Origin: Candidatus Enterousia sp.
Lineage (GTDB): Bacteria > Pseudomonadota > Alphaproteobacteria > Rs-D84
NCBI GenBank assembly: GCA_045616625.1
Contig: JAZLHA010000002.1
Coordinates: forward strand, 40,482 to 104,481
Direction: 5' to 3'
DNA: 64,000 nucleotides
A program made the position numbers and the translations under genes. The notes under the pieces are model-generated. The model worked only from the letters and a program-made list of their open reading frames with translations. It was not told where the DNA came from and searched no databases. This document shows, one piece after another, positions 36,272 to 42,867 of this stretch. Position 1 is the first letter of the stretch; every line of letters starts with the position of its first letter.

Positions 36272-36706
36272 ATGCTAAAAATTTGGACAGATGGCAGTTG
36301 TTTAGGAAACCCTGGTCCGGGCGGATGGGGCTATATCGCAACTGACGGTAAAAATATTGCCAAGTGCAGTGGTGGCGAAGAAAATACAACAAATAACCGT
36401 ATGGAATTGACGGCGGTACTGCATGCTTTAACTGCAGCGGCACGGCGACATGATTCTGTGGAAATTCATACCGATAGTCAGTATGTTAAAAATGGTATGC
36501 AATCTTGGATGAAAAATTGGAAGGCGCATGGTTGGCACACATCAGATAAAAAGCCTGTTAAAAATGTCGATTTATGGCGCGCGTTGGATGAAATATCACA
36601 ACAGATAAAAATAGATTGGGTTTGGGTTCGCGGTCATAATGGCGAAGAATTTAACGAAATAGTTGATGAACTGGCGCGCACAACCGCTGAAAATTTTAAG
36701 AAATAA
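36272..36706 (+). CDS. rnhA: Ribonuclease HI
   Basis: WTDGSCLGNPGPGG, TTNNRMEL, TDSQYV, NVDLW, WVRGH. Confidence 0.97.
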   Translation: MLKIWTDGSCLGNPGPGGWGYIATDGKNIAKCSGGEENTTNNRMELTAVLHALTAAARRHDSVEIHTDSQYVKNGMQSWMKNWKAHGWHTSDKKPVKNVDLWRALDEISQQIKIDWVWVRGHNGEEFNEIVDELARTTAENFKK

Positions 36707-36741
36707 TTGAATTTCAATAAAAAGATGATATTATGTGCCAC

Positions 36742-37054
36742 GCACAGGTGGACAGAACATAGCCGTATGATGTAAAATTCATGCGGAGGAAAGTCCGGAC
36801 TGCATAGGGACGGCGTACGGGCTAACGACCCGGCGGAGTGATTCGACGATTAGAGCAACAGTGACGTAAGCGATTAAATTCGTGGTGAAACGGGCAATCT
36901 CTACGCGCAGCAACTTCAAATAGGCCCCCTTGTTTGTCCCTAGCGTACAGGGGGCGGGTAGAAGGCTTGACATTTTGTGGTAACACATTATGCAGACTAA
37001 TTATGTTCATCAGCATTTGCTGATACAGAATCCGGCTTATCGTTCACTCTGTGC
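36742..37054 (+). ncRNA. rnpB: RNase P RNA (compact)
   Basis: GAGGAAAGTCC (36786) and ACAGAATCCGGCTTAT (37025) form P4; the ends pair as P1. Confidence 0.95.
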
Positions 37055-37111
37055 ATTTTTTATAATAAAAATTTGCATTTGGTATAAATAGGTGTTATAC
37101 TAATGCGCATT

Positions 37112-37188
37112 CGGGGTGTAGCTCAGCCTGGTAGAGTACTTGGTTTGGGACCAAGGTGTCGGAGGTTCGAACCCTCTCACCCCGACCA
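37112..37188 (+). tRNA. tRNA-Pro(TGG)
   Basis: Anticodon arm CTTGG-TT TGG GA-CCAAG; GGTTCGAA; CCA; TTGCAT-N17-TATACT promoter upstream. Confidence 0.96.
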
Positions 37189-37197
37189 TAAAAAATT

Positions 37198-37227
37198 CAA
37201 ACCATCGCAAGATGGTTTTAATTTTTT
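37198..37227 (+). terminator. Terminator after tRNA-Pro(TGG)
   Basis: AAACCATC-GCAA-GATGGTTT followed by a T-rich tail. Confidence 0.8.
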
Positions 37228-37361
37228 ATAGTGGGTGTTCCAGGTGTTAGACCTTGCAACGAATGTTGCCTAGGTTCGAAAACAAGTAGATTTTGGAAGT
37301 GTAACGAACCAAAATCGTTACGGTTTGCCCGCAGACATATTTAATATATGTCGAGGGAGCT

Positions 37362-37377
37362 CCTCTCACCCCGACCA
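37362..37377 (+). repeat. Exact 16-bp copy of tRNA-Pro(TGG) 3' end (att-like)
   Basis: CCTCTCACCCCGACCA is identical to 37173-37188. Confidence 0.85.
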
Positions 37378-37392
37378 CGAAATTCAAAAATA

Positions 37393-38319
37393 CTATTCAA
37401 GAGCGTTTTTATACAGTTTTTCTTTATTTTGTTCTAATTGATTCAGAACAAACTTTATATCTTGTTTTTCCTTGATATTCATTTCACCCAATGTCCTCAA
37501 CACTGGCGAATGGATCGCCCCGCGGCAAAACAACGCTTCTTTTATTGGCATAGGATTAGTTGTCATAAATAATGCTTTATAAAGAGGATATAAAAAGTTA
37601 TGGATATCCAACGCTTCAATTATTTTTCCTGACTTAAAATCGCTAACCATTTTTTGAATCAATCGCCCTTCCAGATGCGAAGCAACACTTATTACACCTT
37701 TTGCCCCCAACGCCAGCATAGGCAAACACAAACTGTCATCGCCAGCATAAATCTGAAAACATTTTGGACTCATAATTTTTAATTCTGTAATCTTATTCAT
37801 ATCACCAAAACTTTGCTTTATCCCTATGATATTAGGATTCGCTTTTGCCAATTCTGCAACTGTTTCTGGTAAAATTTCTGTTCCTGTTCTGGATGGTATA
37901 TTGTATATAATCAACGGTTTATTATTTATTGATTTGGCAATTTTATCAAAATGTCTATAAAGCACCTGTTGCGTTGGTTTTATGTATTCTGGAACAACAA
38001 CCAAAATTCCATTTGCGCCAAGTTCAAACGCTTTTTGTGATTTTAATACGCTTCTGTCAGTGTTTGTATCCCCAGTTGATACAATAATTTTGGAATACCT
38101 TGGTATATAAGAACGTATTTGCTTGATTATTTCTTCAAATTCACAAAAAGAAAGCTGCGACGCTTCACCTGTGGAACCTGCAATTAAAAGAGTGTCGGTA
38201 CCATTTTGCAGTAAATATTCGGCAAGTTTTAACATCCGATTAAAATCAATTGATTGGTCAACATCAGATTTAAATGGTGTTACCATCGCGGTTATAACAT
38301 TACCGAAATCATCACGCAT
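37393..38319 (-). CDS. dapA: DapA-family enzyme (4-hydroxy-tetrahydrodipicolinate synthase-like)
   Basis: ITAMVTPF, GSTGE, YNIPSRTG, Schiff-base IGIK, GDD, GVISV, NPMPIK. Confidence 0.85.
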   Translation of the reverse strand: MRDDFGNVITAMVTPFKSDVDQSIDFNRMLKLAEYLLQNGTDTLLIAGSTGEASQLSFCEFEEIIKQIRSYIPRYSKIIVSTGDTNTDRSVLKSQKAFELGANGILVVVPEYIKPTQQVLYRHFDKIAKSINNKPLIIYNIPSRTGTEILPETVAELAKANPNIIGIKQSFGDMNKITELKIMSPKCFQIYAGDDSLCLPMLALGAKGVISVASHLEGRLIQKMVSDFKSGKIIEALDIHNFLYPLYKALFMTTNPMPIKEALFCRGAIHSPVLRTLGEMNIKEKQDIKFVLNQLEQNKEKLYKNALE

Positions 38320-38370
38320 TTTAACAGCTCTCGTTTTATATGCGAAGCGTATAAAAAAACAATCATAAAA

Positions 38371-38499
38371 TCAAGATAATAATATTTTCTTGCAAATACC
38401 CAAATCTAATTTGCCATAGTTATCAACGTTATTATCACCTATTAAATCAATTGTTTTTGGTAACGGAACAAAATTTGCAATACTTAAATTAAGTTTCAT
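38371..38499 (-). CDS. Possible 42-aa small ORF upstream of dapA
   Basis: ATG at 38499 behind GGAGAG; MKLNLSIANFVPLPKTIDLIGDNNVDNYGKLDLGICKKILLS*; below the ORF-track cutoff. Confidence 0.3.
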   Translation of the reverse strand: MKLNLSIANFVPLPKTIDLIGDNNVDNYGKLDLGICKKILLS

Positions 38500-38537
38500 C
38501 TCTCCACCCTATTTTTATAATCTCGGTTCACAAACAG

Positions 38538-38802
38538 CTATCTCCAACCCGACCACCCTTCGCCAAGGCTTCGGGTGGCAAAGCCACGAATCCGCTTATG
38601 CTGTCGCTACAGCGAGATAAAATTCAAAACCACCACATTTGTGGTGGTTTTTAATTTTGTGTATGTGGTTAAAATTGGATTTGATATATCACAACAAAGT
38701 TGTCGGTTCGACTATGATTAAGCGAAAACGAGTCTTGCGAAGTTTGAGTGCTAACGAATGCGGCACAGGCATTTATGCCGAGCCTATCTTTCGCCCCGAC
38801 CA
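38538..38802 (+). repeat. Two further degenerate tRNA-Pro 3'-end copies with intervening palindromic elements
   Basis: CTCCAACCCGACCA (38542-38555), then CCCTTCGCCAAGGCTTCGGGTGG palindrome and terminator-like hairpin; CTTTCGCCCCGACCA (38788-38802) followed by a near-copy of the tRNA's downstream flank. Confidence 0.75.
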
Positions 38803-38889
38803 TAAAAATTCAAACCGCGTTTATCGCGGTTTTAATTTTTTACTCTTTTGTGGAACAGAGTGTAATTTTTTATAGTGGGTGTATCGTTT

Positions 38890-39768
38890 TTATCTTTGTT
38901 TTAAGTTATATGCGTAAATCATACCAGTAGTGTTGTTTATTTTGTTTTCTTTATATGAAACAAAAAAACCAGATTTTTCAATCATTTCTATTAATGGTTT
39001 GTATATTCCATCATGGTATTCCATAGAAATCGCATGCACAGATGACAATAATTTGTTTTTATACAAATCACTTATTATTTCACGTTCTGAACCTTCGCAA
39101 TCGATTTTAAGCATAATGTTATTTTTATCTGTATCTAAAATGCTTTTCAATTCCTGGGCAGCAGAATGTATAGATATTTTTTCCATATCGCATTTATTTT
39201 TTCCAAAAACTTTGGTTTGTTTTTCTGGAATACTGGAACAACAACCCGACAATTCAATATCATAAGGTAACTCAACAACAGTATATTTATTCCCTAGACC
39301 GTAATTATGTGGAATGATTTTTTGTGCCAAATCTGGATTTGCTTTTAAATTTCGAATTCCTAAATTATAAGTTGGCGTAAAAGGTTCATACGAATAAACT
39401 CTTGCTATATTTGGGTCTTGTGCGAAATGCAAACTAGCAACACCCATATTCATACCAATATCCAACACTGACCATTGTGTGTTATGACCTTTGTCAAAAT
39501 GATAACAATCATTAATTATTATATTGTTGATATGCATTATAATATTTGTGTTTAGTCCAGAAATAGTTAGTTTTTTACTGCTAATAACCAACGAACCATT
39601 TTTTTGTCTCTGTATAACAAAGCCGTTATTAGATACTTTTTTAGAATAACATGCATCAATTACAGCATACCGAACTGTCTTATATAGCTTAAAAGGCAAA
39701 CAATGTTGAGATATTTTCAAACAAGGACGTATAATATATGTACACAACACATCGTGAAAGAGAGACAT
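38890..39768 (-). CDS. FkbM-family methyltransferase
   Basis: VLDIGMNMG, YSYEPF, LKIDCEGSE, ISMEYH; visibly AT-richer than the core genes. Confidence 0.88.
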   Translation of the reverse strand: MSLFHDVLCTYIIRPCLKISQHCLPFKLYKTVRYAVIDACYSKKVSNNGFVIQRQKNGSLVISSKKLTISGLNTNIIMHINNIIINDCYHFDKGHNTQWSVLDIGMNMGVASLHFAQDPNIARVYSYEPFTPTYNLGIRNLKANPDLAQKIIPHNYGLGNKYTVVELPYDIELSGCCSSIPEKQTKVFGKNKCDMEKISIHSAAQELKSILDTDKNNIMLKIDCEGSEREIISDLYKNKLLSSVHAISMEYHDGIYKPLIEMIEKSGFFVSYKENKINNTTGMIYAYNLKQR

Positions 39769-39889
39769 AAAACAAACCTTTTGTTTGGTTGTCGCATTCT
39801 CTCTATTCCACTTGCGTTGATTTTAATATATCAAAAGGTTTACATAAGTCAAGTATTATGAAATGTTATCCTGAATAACAAAAAAAACT

Positions 39890-40105
39890 TTAATTTTCGC
39901 CCATGTGTTTGGCGTTGTTTAATGCACTGCGCAGGGCGTTTTCAGCAATTGTTCTGATTTTTGAGGCAAATGCACGCATATTCATTGCGTCGGCAACCAT
40001 ATCACCAAATTTGTTTGCGATAAATTCAATTTGTGACGGGGCGATAGTGTAAACGTCACTCGTTATGCTGGATGTTGATAATTCTTGAATTCTTTGATTT
40101 TGCAT
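39890..40105 (-). CDS. Small hypothetical protein
   Basis: 71-aa ORF filling the gap, GGGGG RBS. Confidence 0.5.
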   Translation of the reverse strand: MQNQRIQELSTSSITSDVYTIAPSQIEFIANKFGDMVADAMNMRAFASKIRTIAENALRSALNNAKHMGEN

Positions 40106-40196
40106 AAATGCCCCCCTATTTTCCTATGCATTATATCAAAATTTTATCTTTTTGCCACTTGTTTATTAGTGCTTTTAAATTATATCATAAAGTGAC

Positions 40197-40225
40197 TTGA
40201 CCGCAATCGGTAAAATTGCTATAAA
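40197..40225 (+). promoter_or_regulatory. Sigma70 promoter of secA
   Basis: TTGACC-N17-TATAAA. Confidence 0.65.
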
Positions 40226-40260
40226 AGTGCTGATAAACTGTAAGACTGTAAGGAAAAGAA

Positions 40261-42867
40261 ATGGTTAATATATTAAGAAAAGTATTGGGTTCGGCAAATG
40301 ATAGATTGGTTAAATCTTATGACCGGACTGTTTCACTGATAAATGATTTGGAACCTAAATATCACGCGATGACTGATGAACAGTTGCGTGAACAAACGGG
40401 CGAATTGCGTAAACGTATTGCGGCGGGTGAAAAAGAAAAATCTGTGTTGCCTGATGCGTTTGCTTTGGTGCGTGAAGCATCGGTTAGGACTTTGGGCCTG
40501 CGTCATTTTAATGTGCAAATGATTGGTGGTATGGTTTTAAATAATGGACAAATTGCTGAAATGAAAACCGGTGAAGGTAAGACACTGGTGGCGACTTTGG
40601 CGATGTTCTTAAAGGCGTTACATGGCAATGGCGCGCATTTGATTACTGTAAATGATTACTTGGCATCGCGTGACGCAAATTGGATGGGCGAAATATATCG
40701 CTTTTTAGGGCTGTCGGTCGGTATTATTCAACACGATATGACTGATGAAGAACGTCGTGCCGCGTATAATTGCGATATAACATACGTCACTAATTCTGAA
40801 TTGGGGTTTGATTATCTGCGTGATAATATGAAGTTCACTAAGGAACAACAGGTTTTGCGTCCGTTCTTTTATGCGATTGTTGACGAAGTTGATTCTATTT
40901 TAATTGACGAAGCGCGCACACCTTTGATTATTTCTGGTCCGTCCGAAGATATTAGCGATTTGTATAACAAGGTTGATGCAGTTGTCGCAAAACTGACGGA
41001 ATCTGATTATAAAAAAGATGAAAAAGACCGCCATGTGACACTAACCGAATCGGGTGTTGATAACGCAACACAATTGTTAAAAGAAGCCGGTGTTTTGGTT
41101 GGCGATAATTTGTATGCGTCTGAAAATGCTGCGGTTGTTATGCATGTTCAACAGGCATTGTTGGCGCATCACCTGTATCAAAAAAATGTGAACTATGTTG
41201 TCCGTAATGGCGAGGTTTTAATTGTTGATGAATTTACTGGTCGTGTTATGTCCGGTCGCAGATTTGGTCGTGGTTTACACCAGGCCATAGAGGCCAAAGA
41301 ACATGTGGCGGTGCAGCCTGAAAATCAAACTGTGTCGTCTATATCATACCAGAATTTATTCCGCCTGTACCCTACTTTGGCTGGTATGACCGGAACCGCC
41401 ATGACCGAAGCGGTGGAATTTGAAGAAATTTATAAATTGCGTGTGGTATCTATTCCGACAAATCGTCCGGTTGCACGTGTTGACCATCATGACGAAATTT
41501 ATCGCAACAAGGATGAAAAATACGACGCAATTATAAAACAAATCAAAGAATGTTTGGATAAAAAACAACCTGTGTTGGTTGGAACGGTTTCTATTGAAAA
41601 ATCTGAAGAATTGGCTGAAATTGTTAAAAAACGTCTGAAGATAACACCGGCGGTATTAAATGCCAAACATCACGAGTCTGAGGCAAAAATTGTTTCCCAG
41701 GCTGGTGCCCCAGGTGCGGTCACAATTGCGACGAATATGGCGGGTCGTGGAACTGATATTAAACTCGGTGGAAATGCCGAAGATTTAATTGCTGATTTGG
41801 ATAAAAATGCCCCAGATTACGAAAAGAAAAAGAAAGAAATCTATGATACAATTGAAAAAAACAAAAAATTGGTTTTAGAAGTTGGTGGATTGTATGTGAT
41901 TGGAACAGAACGTCATGAATCACGCCGTATAGATAACCAATTGCGTGGTCGTTCAGGACGGCAAGGTGATCCAGGTGATTCCAAATTCTTCTTGGCATTG
42001 GACGATGATTTAATGCGTATATTCGGTGCCGAAAGATTGAATACGATGCTTACAACTTTGGGACTGAAACCGGGCGAAGCAATTACCCATCCATGGATAA
42101 CCAAGGCCCTAGAAAAGGCGCAAAAACGAGTTGAAGCACGTTATTTTGAAGCCCGTAAAGAATTGCTGAAATATGATGATGTTATGAATGAGCAACGTAT
42201 TGTTGTCTATAAACAACGCGATGATTTAATGACATCCGAGAATTTGGCGCCTTTGGCGGATGAAATGATAGGTGATGTTGTTGAATTGATATGTGAAGCG
42301 AATATTCCTGAAAAAACACGTTCGTCTGATTGGAATGTTGCTGCAATTCATGATGCTATGTTACGGACATTTGCATTGGATATCACAGATATTGAAAAAT
42401 GGAAGTCTGATGAAGAAATCACAGAGCGCAAAGCGTATGAAACTCTGCGCGGGCTTGCAAATCGTCGTTATGCTCAACAGGCTGAAAAATACGGTCCTGA
42501 ATTGATGCAGATGGCATCACGTCAAATGATGTTGGGTGCGCTGGATAGTGTTTGGAAACGCCATTTGCAACAGATGGATTATTTACAAACTGCAATTGGT
42601 TTGCGTGGCTATGGCCAGAAAAATCCGTTGTATGAATATAAACGCGAATCTTTGGATATATTCAGAAATACGATGAATAATTTTAAGTTGATGTCTATCA
42701 CTTATATTTCTCGTATGGAACTAACACGTGAAGATGTTAATGCCAAGGCACGTGAACATGAACAACATGACGAAGCGTTAAATCAGGCTGGCGATGCACG
42801 CAGAAATGCGCCATGCCCCTGTGGATCTGGATTAAAATACAAACATTGTTGTGGTAAGTTGCATTAA
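40261..42867 (+). CDS. secA: Preprotein translocase ATPase SecA
   Basis: MKTGEGKT, DEVDSILIDEARTPLIISG, ATNMAGRGTDI, GRSGRQGDPG, SEC-C RNAPCPCGSGLKYKHCCG. Confidence 0.99.
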   Translation: MVNILRKVLGSANDRLVKSYDRTVSLINDLEPKYHAMTDEQLREQTGELRKRIAAGEKEKSVLPDAFALVREASVRTLGLRHFNVQMIGGMVLNNGQIAEMKTGEGKTLVATLAMFLKALHGNGAHLITVNDYLASRDANWMGEIYRFLGLSVGIIQHDMTDEERRAAYNCDITYVTNSELGFDYLRDNMKFTKEQQVLRPFFYAIVDEVDSILIDEARTPLIISGPSEDISDLYNKVDAVVAKLTESDYKKDEKDRHVTLTESGVDNATQLLKEAGVLVGDNLYASENAAVVMHVQQALLAHHLYQKNVNYVVRNGEVLIVDEFTGRVMSGRRFGRGLHQAIEAKEHVAVQPENQTVSSISYQNLFRLYPTLAGMTGTAMTEAVEFEEIYKLRVVSIPTNRPVARVDHHDEIYRNKDEKYDAIIKQIKECLDKKQPVLVGTVSIEKSEELAEIVKKRLKITPAVLNAKHHESEAKIVSQAGAPGAVTIATNMAGRGTDIKLGGNAEDLIADLDKNAPDYEKKKKEIYDTIEKNKKLVLEVGGLYVIGTERHESRRIDNQLRGRSGRQGDPGDSKFFLALDDDLMRIFGAERLNTMLTTLGLKPGEAITHPWITKALEKAQKRVEARYFEARKELLKYDDVMNEQRIVVYKQRDDLMTSENLAPLADEMIGDVVELICEANIPEKTRSSDWNVAAIHDAMLRTFALDITDIEKWKSDEEITERKAYETLRGLANRRYAQQAEKYGPELMQMASRQMMLGALDSVWKRHLQQMDYLQTAIGLRGYGQKNPLYEYKRESLDIFRNTMNNFKLMSITYISRMELTREDVNAKAREHEQHDEALNQAGDARRNAPCPCGSGLKYKHCCGKLH

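What the first reader, a model, noticed from the sequence alone, without database searches (positions are those of the whole stretch)
37112..39768. Serial cassette array at tRNA-Pro: three 3'-end copies with split T-loops, no integrase
Seen: tRNA 3'-end copies at 37362, 38542 and 38788. Copies 1 and 3 are preceded about 75-80 nt upstream by GGTTCGA (37273, 38705). Both spacers end in related hairpins (GCAGACATAT…ATATGTCGAG; GCACAGGCAT…ATGCCGAG), as if a tRNA 3' half were split in the T-loop by an insert. Copy 3 also repeats the tRNA's downstream flank (AAAATTCAAACC-hairpin-GGTTTTAATTTTTT and the exact 19-mer AATTTTTTATAGTGGGTGT at 37220 and 38864). Cargo genes lie between or after the copies, antisense to the tRNA. 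Inference: repeated integration by a trans-acting recombinase, giving an integron-like gene-capture site built from small non-autonomous tRNA-targeting elements.
Basis: partly seen in the sequence, partly recalled or inferred. Interest (0 to 1): 0.62.

Follow-up and report, generated by a model that had tools for sequence, protein, structure and literature searches.

The report
RtT-like tRNA-tail units with captured genes
Behind a proline tRNA gene of a tiny gut bacterium lie two copies of a little-understood kind of small repeat (the same build as the old E. coli "RtT" repeats), each carrying a copy of the tRNA's tail, and two horizontally acquired single genes have been inserted next to them, so the tRNA tail acts as a gene-collecting spot whose recombination mechanism is still unknown.

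Summary
tRNA-Pro(TGG) at 37112-37188 is followed by 3'-end copies ending at 37377, 38555 and 38802. Copies 1 and 3 are each preceded by GGTTCGA plus a structured insert of about 80 nt. The inserts are not private spacers. They are two core modules of a large repeat family that lies behind tRNA genes throughout the genus (Candidatus Enterousia): 11 copies in this genome, and type 1 in 54 of 61 species. Each is wedged between T-loop nt 58 and 59 of a copy of the cognate tRNA's 3' part. Units are often tandem, and stem covariation is strong (95% paired, 18 of 24 pairs compensatory). The build matches the E. coli RtT repeats (Rfam RF00391), though the Rfam model does not score them. The two genes are true cargo: dapA occurs in 2 of 61 species and the FkbM-type methyltransferase in 3 of 61, and both lie behind tRNA-Gln elsewhere. 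A relative has both units without cargo, another has one unit, another none. No recombinase is encoded here, and high-copy genomes hold only XerC/D. The cassette-array reading is partly supported; the mechanism is inferred. Verdict: a new variant of a known kind.

The parts
36744..37056 (+). RNase P RNA (context; directly upstream of the tRNA promoter)
   Evidence: Rfam RF00010, 193 bits, E 3.9e-62
37112..37188 (+). tRNA-Pro(TGG), intact
   Evidence: ARAGORN; Rfam tRNA 62.8 bits; promoter-like site at 37072-37101
37189..37228 (.). Bidirectional terminator 1 (stem 37199-37218). Together with the tRNA end and the following ATAGTGGGTGT it forms a 28-nt-arm palindrome.
   Evidence: inverted repeat I1, 37179-37206 / 37211-37238, 86% complementary
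37229..37279 (+). Unit 1, left part: decayed inverted arm, conserved hairpin GCAACGAATGTTGC (37256-37269), and the T-loop left half GGTTCGA (37273-37279)
   Evidence: (repeat D3). The same hairpin plus GGTTCGA precedes modules at other tRNAs.
37280..37359 (+). Type-1 core module (two stem-loops), sitting between T-loop nt 58 and 59 of the copied T arm
   Evidence: CM R1, 90.6 bits, E 5e-23; covariation statistics
37360..37377 (+).
37379..38544 (-). dapA cassette. CDS 37393-38319 (4-hydroxy-tetrahydrodipicolinate synthase) with its upstream region. It splits the unit-1 terminator after AAATTCAAA and is bounded by CCCGACCAC at 37370-37378 and 38548-38556.
   Evidence: Pfam DHDPS 2e-76; NCBIfam dapA equivalog, 276.7 bits against a cut-off of 206; present in 2 of 61 genus genomes; G012 has the two units adjacent with no gene between them
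38525..38556 (+). Vestigial T-loop and 3'-end copy 2: GGTTCA-CAAACAGCT-AT-CTCCAACCCGACCA-C. It forms the right border of the dapA cassette and is not identical to the resident tRNA.
   Evidence: repeat D2; no look-alike in 150 other loci
38557..38658 (.). A 60-nt extra segment, then bidirectional terminator 2 (stem 38626-38651)
   Evidence: (I2). A comparable 35-nt extra follows tRNA-Pro in G018 and G020.
38659..38711 (+). Unit 2, left part: decayed inverted arm, hairpin ACAACAAAGTTGT (38691-38703), and GGTTCGA (38705-38711)
38712..38787 (+). Type-2 core module
   Evidence: nhmmer E 2.3e-23. Copies also lie behind tRNA-Arg(CCG) and tRNA-Glu(TTC) in this genome and behind tRNA-Pro in G012.
38788..38840 (+). 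3' arm of unit 2 (copy 3: CTTTCGCCCCGACCA, 38788-38802) plus terminator 3 (arms 38804-38819 / 38825-38840)
   Evidence: (D1, I6)
38843..38882 (.). A 21-nt insert flanked by a 9-nt duplication AATTTTTTA (38834-38842 and 38864-38872), then a second copy of the native post-terminator flank
   Evidence: repeat D4
38883..39868 (-). FkbM-type methyltransferase cassette: CDS 38890-39768 with about 100 nt of its own upstream region
   Evidence: NCBIfam fkbM_fam, 62.4 bits; present in 3 of 61 genus genomes. In G060 the 72%-identical gene with a homologous upstream region lies behind a unit at tRNA-Gln(CTG); homology ends about 110 nt upstream of the start codon.

Best explanation
The array is a tRNA-Pro 'tail' built from two RtT-like fold-back units plus one vestige, with two horizontally acquired single-gene cassettes lodged at the repeated sequences these units provide.

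A unit is about 150-190 bp and non-coding. In order it contains a bidirectional terminator, an inverted copy and then a direct copy of the neighbouring tRNA's T-stem and acceptor 3' strand, and a structured core module wedged between T-loop nt 58 and 59 of the direct copy. It ends in NCCA and a second terminator.

Shown:
- The family exists and its stems covary.
- Its arms are cognate to the tRNA it follows.
- Units occur in tandem arrays and turn over between species.
- The build is the same as the E. coli RtT repeats.
- The cargo genes are accessory and sit at unit or 3'-end borders.

Inferred:
- Units multiply locally by slippage or unequal recombination across their 55-105-nt direct repeats and palindromes.
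- They stay cognate through gene conversion with the tRNA.
- The extra tRNA-3'-end/terminator copies serve as secondary attachment sites. Circular DNA carrying a matching 3'-end segment is inserted there. The agent is either a recombinase supplied in trans acting on a short core in the acceptor 3' strand, or RecA acting on a shared unit (Campbell-type insertion).
- Nothing in the array encodes a recombinase.
For: Family:
- 11 modules in this genome, all directly behind tRNA genes on the same strand.
- Type 1 in 54 of 61 genus genomes, up to 26 copies each.
- In 80 independent loci, 59 of 99 modules lie within 400 nt downstream of a tRNA, covering 18 tRNA identities.
- In 37 of 66 cases the following arm matches the cognate tRNA end at 15/17 or better, against 0 of 66 for other tRNAs.
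- The left T-loop half is cognate too: TCCGA for a Met tRNA, TTCA for Glu and Ser.

Structure:
- 95.3% of cells paired, against 78.5% in shuffles and 29-47% with the partner slid.
- 18 of 24 pairs show compensatory change.

Activity:
- Identical tandem units: three of 171 nt in L033, two in L040.
- tRNA-Pro carries 0, 1 or 2 units in G020, G018 and G012.

RtT build:
- The E. coli tyrT repeats read GGGGAAGG-ATGAGAA-..GGTTCGAC-core-AATCC-TTCCCCCACCACCA.
- The pattern ATGAGAA..GGTTCGAC..AATCC hits 23 of 401 Pseudomonadota genomes, with 0 hits for the reversed control.

Cargo:
- dapA in 2 of 61 species and FkbM in 3 of 61, both behind tRNA-Gln elsewhere.
- Unit-cassette-unit arrays in L024, L034 and L124, with junctions inside the acceptor 3' strand.
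- In L124 a ~190-nt unit is duplicated on both sides of a 2.9-kb insert.
Against: - No excision or integration event was observed.
- The two units flanking dapA are of different types, so RecA recombination on shared units cannot explain this particular cassette. Its borders share only 9-12 nt.
- How a unit acquires arms cognate to a new tRNA is not explained by slippage alone.
- The window's own units have decayed inverted arms and lack the ATGAGAA motif.
- The Rfam RtT model does not score them (best 29 bits in the genus, against a cut-off of 45). Homology with RtT is therefore architectural, not demonstrated.
Confidence: 0.55

Rival explanations
1. Every 3'-end copy is an att site left by serial site-specific integration of small non-autonomous elements, carried out by a tyrosine or serine recombinase encoded elsewhere. 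The ~80-nt modules are the P arms of their attP sites.
For: - Cassette borders lie in the acceptor 3' strand with short duplications: CTCCGC in L024, CCCGACCAC in the window.
- Ser-type cassette ends share a conserved ~65-nt end with tandem CCCTGTAAAT repeats, like integrase arm sites, next to the core CTCCGCCA.
- Integrases exist in the genus, and one P4-like integrase is in this genome.
Against: - Units occur without cargo and in identical tandem copies.
- Genomes with 10-14 type-1 units (G058, G020) have only XerC/XerD.
- Classical islands in the genus use a 46-nt att from the anticodon loop and carry no module.
- The module stems covary, which protein arm sites do not need.
Confidence: 0.25
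2. The core modules are miniature single-strand-DNA insertion elements (of the IS200/IS605 PATE or REP type). They insert 3' of ..CGA in the exposed T-loop of a tRNA-tail copy, and the units are merely their safe harbours.
For: - Precise insertion after TTCGA with no target duplication.
- Hairpins near both ends.
- Modules stacked head to tail in one T-loop, each following ..CGAGCGA (L115, L138).
- GTAG directly 5' of the first hairpin, as in REPs (REP feature from my own knowledge).
- Stems are almost purely Watson-Crick: G.T 0.8% and A.C 1.9% of stem pairs, against 7.6% and 0.8% in this genome's tRNA stems.
Against: - The Y1 transposase/RAYT family PF01797 is present in only 1 of 61 genus genomes.
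- Stacked modules can also arise when the palindrome between tandem units is deleted at CGA microhomology.
- The model does not explain the inverted arm or the duplicated terminator.
Confidence: 0.15
3. The units are genes for tRNA-like non-coding RNAs, like RtT RNA. They would be cut out of read-through tRNA transcripts by tRNA-processing enzymes, because the inverted and direct arms form an acceptor/T minihelix ending in NCCA. On this view their conservation is functional and the cargo genes are incidental neighbours.
For: - Whole units fold into a 12-13-bp closing stem with 3' NCCA plus three hairpins (z = -4.2 and -4.0).
- In well-preserved units of relatives (32 of 130 type-1 modules) and in E. 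coli RtT, GA replaces the TC that a perfect inverted copy would carry opposite G57A58. This could form tandem sheared G.A pairs (inference).
- E. coli RtT is reported as a processed RNA (Bosl & Kersten 1991, as cited in PMC3318445 and bioRxiv 10.1101/2024.07.17.603846).
Against: - In this genus a strong terminator precedes every unit, and no promoter-like site lies between them.
- There is almost no G.U wobble in the stems.
- Patchy presence, type swapping at the same tRNA, and identical tandem copies look like selfish turnover.
Confidence: 0.2
4. The copies are chance similarities, or simple decay products of one old tRNA-Pro duplication with no family behind them.
For: Copy 2 on its own is short and weak.
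Against: E-values of 1e-20 and lower, hundreds of family members, and covariation.
Confidence: 0.01

Closest known systems
RtT repeats / RtT RNA of the E. coli tyrT-tyrV operon (Rfam RF00391; the 178-bp repeat known since 1978, from my own knowledge)
   Same: - Lies behind tRNA genes and is tandemly repeated.
- Has an inverted arm complementary to the T-stem and acceptor 3' strand, with ATGAGAA in place of the T-loop complement.
- GGTTCGAC is followed by a structured core, then AATCC and the cognate tRNA 3' end with CCA.
   Different: - The core sequences differ.
- The Rfam model finds nothing in the window at E<=10 and at most 29 bits in the genus, against a cut-off of 45.
- Here each unit is bracketed by intrinsic terminators.
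- Many tRNA species are occupied, and accessory genes are lodged between units. Neither is described for RtT.
tRNA-integrating genomic islands and their integrase-less derivatives (CIMEs; tandem accretion). Named from my own knowledge.
   Same: Direct repeats of the tRNA 3' end bound accessory DNA; elements lack a recombinase; serial arrangement.
   Different: - Units exist without cargo.
- The repeat carries a structured insert in the T-loop and an inverted arm.
- The genus's real integrase islands have a different att.
Integron cassette arrays with folded attC sites
   Same: Serial single-gene cassettes separated by imperfect palindromes whose structure, more than their sequence, is conserved.
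   Different: No IntI, attI or Pc. The cassettes have their own promoters and run antisense. The palindromes are built from tRNA 3' ends and terminators.
IS200/IS605-derived PATEs and REP/RAYT elements
   Same: Small hairpin-rich modules, insertion 3' of a fixed short motif without duplication, and Watson-Crick-only covariation.
   Different: The Y1 transposase is absent from 60 of 61 genomes. The modules are confined to tRNA-tail copies.
Tycheposon islands of Prochlorococcus (Hackl et al. 2023; from my own knowledge, not tested here)
   Same: Cargo arrays at tRNA genes separated by partial tRNA repeats.
   Different: Tycheposons carry their own recombinase and replication genes. No T-loop module or fold-back unit is described for them.

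Membership tests
RtT (Rfam RF00391) | Scores at or above the family's gathering threshold (45 bits) | tested here: not met
   No hit in window 36500-40300 at E<=10. The best hit in 41 genus genomes is 29 bits. The E. coli controls score 133-138 bits.
RtT (Rfam RF00391) | Lies in the tail of a tRNA gene or operon and ends in a copy of that tRNA's 3' end with CCA | tested here: met
RtT (Rfam RF00391) | Upstream inverted arm closing a helix with the 3' arm, with ATGAGAA and GGTTCGAC flanking | tested here: inconclusive
   Met in many genus units (L033, L042, L025, and the His unit). An ATGAGAA-like motif is present in 32 of 130 modules. The two window units keep GGTTCGA, but their inverted arms are decayed.
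Integron | An IntI integrase gene with attI and Pc next to the array | tested here: not met
   No PF00589 match on this contig. The neighbouring genes are transketolase, RNase H, secA and dnaE.
Integron | Promoterless co-oriented cassettes, each ending in an attC | tested here: not met
   The genes run antisense to the tRNA. The upstream region of the FkbM gene, with a promoter-like site, travels with the gene in G060.
tRNA-integrating island / CIME | Accessory DNA bounded by direct repeats of the tRNA 3' end | tested here: met
   CCCGACCAC at 37370-37378 and 38548-38556; accessory status of the gene
tRNA-integrating island / CIME | A cognate integrase in the element or elsewhere in the genome that acts on these sites | not testable with these tools
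   One P4-like integrase is on another contig. No link to these sites could be made. High-copy genomes lack such integrases.
IS200/IS605 PATE / REP | A Y1 (HUH) transposase or RAYT present in the host lineage | tested here: not met
   PF01797 in 1 of 61 genomes
IS200/IS605 PATE / REP | Subterminal hairpins and insertion 3' of a fixed motif without duplication | tested here: met

The most novel reading that the evidence does not exclude
RtT-like units would be a phylum-wide class of tRNA-tail elements whose folded single strand mimics the duplex T-arm/acceptor end of a tRNA gene. They would work as attachment sites for a cassette-capture system that needs no element-encoded integrase, relying on host Xer, RecA or replication template switching. 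That would be a gene-collecting platform analogous to an integron but built on tRNA mimicry. It would also explain the unexplained E. coli RtT repeats, known since 1978.
Probability: 0.15. Interest if true: 0.85.

Novelty: new variant of a known kind. Interest (0 to 1): 0.6.

Why it matters
These gut bacteria have genomes of only about 0.8-1 Mb, yet their tRNA tails hold a fast-turning family of structured repeats together with rare acquired genes. If the units really serve as attachment sites, they would show how highly reduced genomes still take up genes without carrying integrases.

The shared architecture also links the units to the E. coli RtT repeats, whose origin and role have never been explained. 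That makes the question testable in a laboratory strain.

The exact placement of unrelated cores at T-loop position 58/59, always with arms cognate to the neighbouring tRNA, is not accounted for by any described mobility mechanism.

Tried and rejected
- **Rfam scan of the region:** only RNase P RNA and the tRNA were found; nothing for the modules.
- **IS200/IS605 origin:** disfavoured, because PF01797 is in 1 of 61 genomes.
- **Classical integrase att scars:** integrase counts do not track unit counts, and the real islands of the genus (tRNA-Asn, tRNA-Arg) have a different att without modules.
- **Hammerhead reading of GAUGAGAA:** rejected, because the essential U4 of CUGAUGA is not kept (read from the sequences).
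- **Exact-protein look-ups for both cargo proteins:** nothing on record.
- **Metagenome scan with a locus-specific 26-mer:** no match.
- **BLAST of the cassette borders against about 150 loci:** no shared cassette ends for the Pro cassettes.
- **Bosl & Kersten 1991:** not held in the paper library.
- **Strand of folding:** judged from the G.T versus A.C counts; only a weak hint towards DNA-level or two-strand constraint.
Full report
**1. What is at the coordinates**

The window lies on contig C2 of an 814-kb, 37% G+C genome with a permuted tmRNA. Public record titles of relatives name the genus Candidatus Enterousia, a group of uncultured gut Alphaproteobacteria.

RNase P RNA (36744-37056) is followed by an intact tRNA-Pro(TGG) at 37112-37188.
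- 3'-end copies end at 37377 (16/16 identical), 38555 (weak) and 38802 (13/15).
- GGTTCGA lies at 37273 and 38705.
- The two inserts end in related hairpins.
- The terminator flank is repeated, including an exact 20-mer at 37219 and 38863.
- Two ORFs run antisense to the tRNA. One is a dapA equivalog (37393-38319). The other is an FkbM-family methyltransferase (38890-39768).
- Three bidirectional terminators follow the tRNA and the copies. No promoter-like site precedes either insert.

**2. The 'spacers' are members of a dispersed, structured family**

BLAST and nhmmer against the whole genome found the two inserts again behind other tRNAs. There are 11 copies in three sequence types. They lie behind Pro (two copies), Ser-GCT, Ser-GGA, Met, Gly-GCC, Arg-CCG, Glu-TTC, His, Lys-CTT and Arg-CCT. 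Each is on the tRNA's strand, and most are followed by a copy of that tRNA's own 3' end and a terminator; some of these arms are decayed (Ser-GCT, Met, Glu).

A covariance model of type 1 gave these results.
- It found the module in 54 of 61 genus genomes, with 1-26 copies each.
- The arm after the module matches the cognate tRNA end at 15/17 or better in 37 of 66 cases. The figure is 0 of 66 for randomly chosen other tRNAs.

The T-loop half before the module is cognate as well. It reads GGGTCCGAC behind a Met tRNA whose loop is TCCGAAT, and GGTTCAC behind tRNAs with TTCAAAT. The module therefore sits between nt 58 and 59 of a copied T arm.

On 35 distinct type-1 sequences, 95.3% of stem cells are paired. 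Column shuffles give 78.5% and slid partners give 29-47%. Eighteen of 24 pairs show compensatory changes.

**3. The unit**

Well-preserved copies show a common plan. The order is:
- the tRNA;
- a terminator;
- an inverted copy of the tRNA's acceptor 3' strand and T stem, in which the T-loop complement reads ATGAGAA rather than ATTCGAA;
- the T-stem 5' strand and TTCGA, followed by C;
- the core module;
- (G)AAT, the T-stem 3' strand, the acceptor 3' strand and NCCA;
- the same terminator again.

Whole units fold into a 12-13-bp closing helix with a free NCCA, plus three hairpins.

Units occur as identical tandem copies: three of 171 nt in L033 and two in L040. Several cores can be stacked head to tail in one T-loop, each following ..CGA (L115, L138). 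At least five core families occupy the same position.

The window's two units are the variant with a conserved extra hairpin (GCAAC-GAAT-GTTGC) before GGTTCGA. Their inverted arms are decayed.

**4. Link to a known element**

The tyrT-tyrV region of K-12 holds four RF00391 matches. Their sequence is GGGGAAGG-ATGAGAA-GCTTCGACCAAGGTTCGAC-core-GTAATCC-TTCCCCCACCACCA. That is the same plan, and it includes the ATGAGAA and GGTTCGAC motifs.

The pattern ATGAGAA-N3-16-GGTTCGAC-N60-90-AATCC hits 23 of 401 Pseudomonadota genomes (14 of 211 genera), often in tandem. The reversed control pattern hits none.

The Rfam model itself does not reach threshold here. It finds nothing in the window. Its best score in the genus is 29 bits against a cut-off of 45, on a fourth core type whose 3' part resembles RtT. 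The relationship is therefore one of architecture and perhaps distant homology, not family membership.

The literature held here describes RtT only as an RNA processed from the tyrT transcript, of unclear role. One preprint notes raised coverage of the region in circular-DNA-enriched libraries under stress.

**5. The cargo**

dapA is present in 2 of 61 genus genomes. In G074 the 62%-identical copy lies in an islet about 2.7 kb behind tRNA-Gln.

The FkbM gene is present in 3 of 61. In G060 the 72%-identical gene, with a homologous upstream region, lies directly behind a unit at tRNA-Gln(CTG). A unit remnant and a decayed tRNA-Gln end follow it.

At tRNA-Pro(TGG), G020 has no unit. G018 has one type-1 unit whose duplicated segment runs from the T-loop past the terminator, and includes a locus-specific 35-nt extra. 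G012 has the type-1 and type-2 units side by side with no gene between them.

So in this genome dapA was inserted between two pre-existing units. It splits the terminator after AAATTCAAA. Its borders carry CCCGACCAC at 37370-37378 and 38548-38556. The right-hand copy sits in a vestigial T-arm-like segment that is not identical to the resident tRNA.

Arrays of unit, cassette, unit recur in other genomes, with junctions inside the acceptor 3' strand.
- In L024, CTCCGC is duplicated on both sides of the cassette.
- In L124, a ~190-nt segment (tRNA end, terminator and unit) is duplicated on both sides of a 2.9-kb insert.
- Ser-type cassette ends share a conserved ~65-nt end with tandem CCCTGTAAAT repeats.

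**6. Who does the recombination**

The genome has three tyrosine recombinases. Two are XerC/D-like and one is P4-like, and none is on this contig. G020 and G058, with 14 and 10 type-1 units, have only the two Xer proteins. Genomes without type-1 units have up to six PF00589 matches.

The classical integrase islands of the genus sit at tRNA-Asn and tRNA-Arg(TCT). At tRNA-Asn their att is a 46-nt segment starting in the anticodon loop, and they carry no module. The Y1 transposase family is present in 1 of 61 genomes.

The module stems are almost purely Watson-Crick. G.T pairs make up 0.8% and A.C 1.9% of stem pairs. In the acceptor and T stems of this genome's tRNAs the figures are 7.6% and 0.8%. 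This is a weak hint that the structure matters at the DNA level or on both strands.

**7. Reading**

Shown:
- The copies are arms of RtT-like units from a large, structured family that turns over between species.
- The genes are accessory cassettes lodged at unit or 3'-end borders.
- No recombinase is encoded in the array.

Inferred:
- Units amplify by slippage or unequal exchange across their long direct repeats and palindromes.
- Units stay cognate by gene conversion with the tRNA.
- The extra 3'-end/terminator copies act as secondary attachment sites for incoming circular DNA. The agent would be either a recombinase acting in trans on a short acceptor-strand core or RecA acting on a shared unit.

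How a unit acquires arms for a new tRNA remains unexplained.

The rival readings are serial integrase events, single-strand-DNA mini-transposons, and functional tRNA-like RNAs. Each explains part of the data and fails on another part. They are listed with their tests in the rival-explanations section.

**8. Limits**

No strain-level contigs or exact protein records were found. Excision, circles and transcription therefore could not be examined.

Noticed in passing
window 36744-37188: RNase P RNA lies directly upstream of tRNA-Pro(TGG), only 55 nt away. In most relatives the two genes are at different places in the genome.
   Followed up: partly
window 37393-38319: A lone dapA equivalog, scoring above NCBIfam's cut-off, sits in a genus where 59 of 61 genomes have no dapA-like gene at all. 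It is unclear what it does without the rest of the lysine/DAP pathway.
   Followed up: partly
window 38834-38872: A 21-nt insert (CTCTTTTGTGGAACAGAGTGT) is flanked by a 9-nt duplication AATTTTTTA, just after unit 2's terminator.
   Followed up: no
window 38557-38617; L047 and L048 (G018 and G020 tRNA-Pro): Extra segments of 35-60 nt, beginning C(A/C)CTTCGC, sit between the CCA end and the terminator. This may be yet another small insert type in tRNA tails.
   Followed up: no
L034:483, L116, L134, L159, L124:3932 (reverse-complement coordinates, as printed): Cassettes at tRNA-Ser tails end in a conserved ~65-nt sequence with tandem CCCTGTAAAT repeats, followed by ACCGTCAAATATTACAA and the core CTCCGCCA. 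It looks like the P arm of an integrase attP, but no integrase lies nearby. The cargo includes a DNA methyltransferase-like gene and glycosyltransferase-like genes; these names are my reading of the translations, with no family search run.
   Followed up: partly
L115:2591-3060; L138:3040-3435: Two or three core modules (types 1, 2, 1) are stacked head to tail inside one copied T-loop. Each starts right after ..CGAGCGA or GGTTCGA.
   Followed up: partly
L065 (G043) and L070 (G076): Classical 7-9-kb integrase islands at tRNA-Asn with an exact 46-nt att from the anticodon loop. L070 carries arm repeats TTTGCTACC at both ends.
   Followed up: partly
L017, L019 (tRNA-Met, CAU anticodon): A Met tRNA with the unusual T-loop TCCGAAT (C55). 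The units behind it copy this variant (GGGTCCGAC, and ATGAGGA in the inverted arm).
   Followed up: no
window 39890-40105: A 71-aa ORF antisense to secA's upstream region has no Pfam or NCBIfam match. It lies just beyond the FkbM cassette border.
   Followed up: no
G000 C1:43800-44043 (tRNA-Gly-GCC tail): Two successive units lie behind tRNA-Gly. The first has a short core of a different kind (GAACCCGTAGGGTTTGCGAGGCGAGGGCGGAACGCCCGAAGTA).
   Followed up: no
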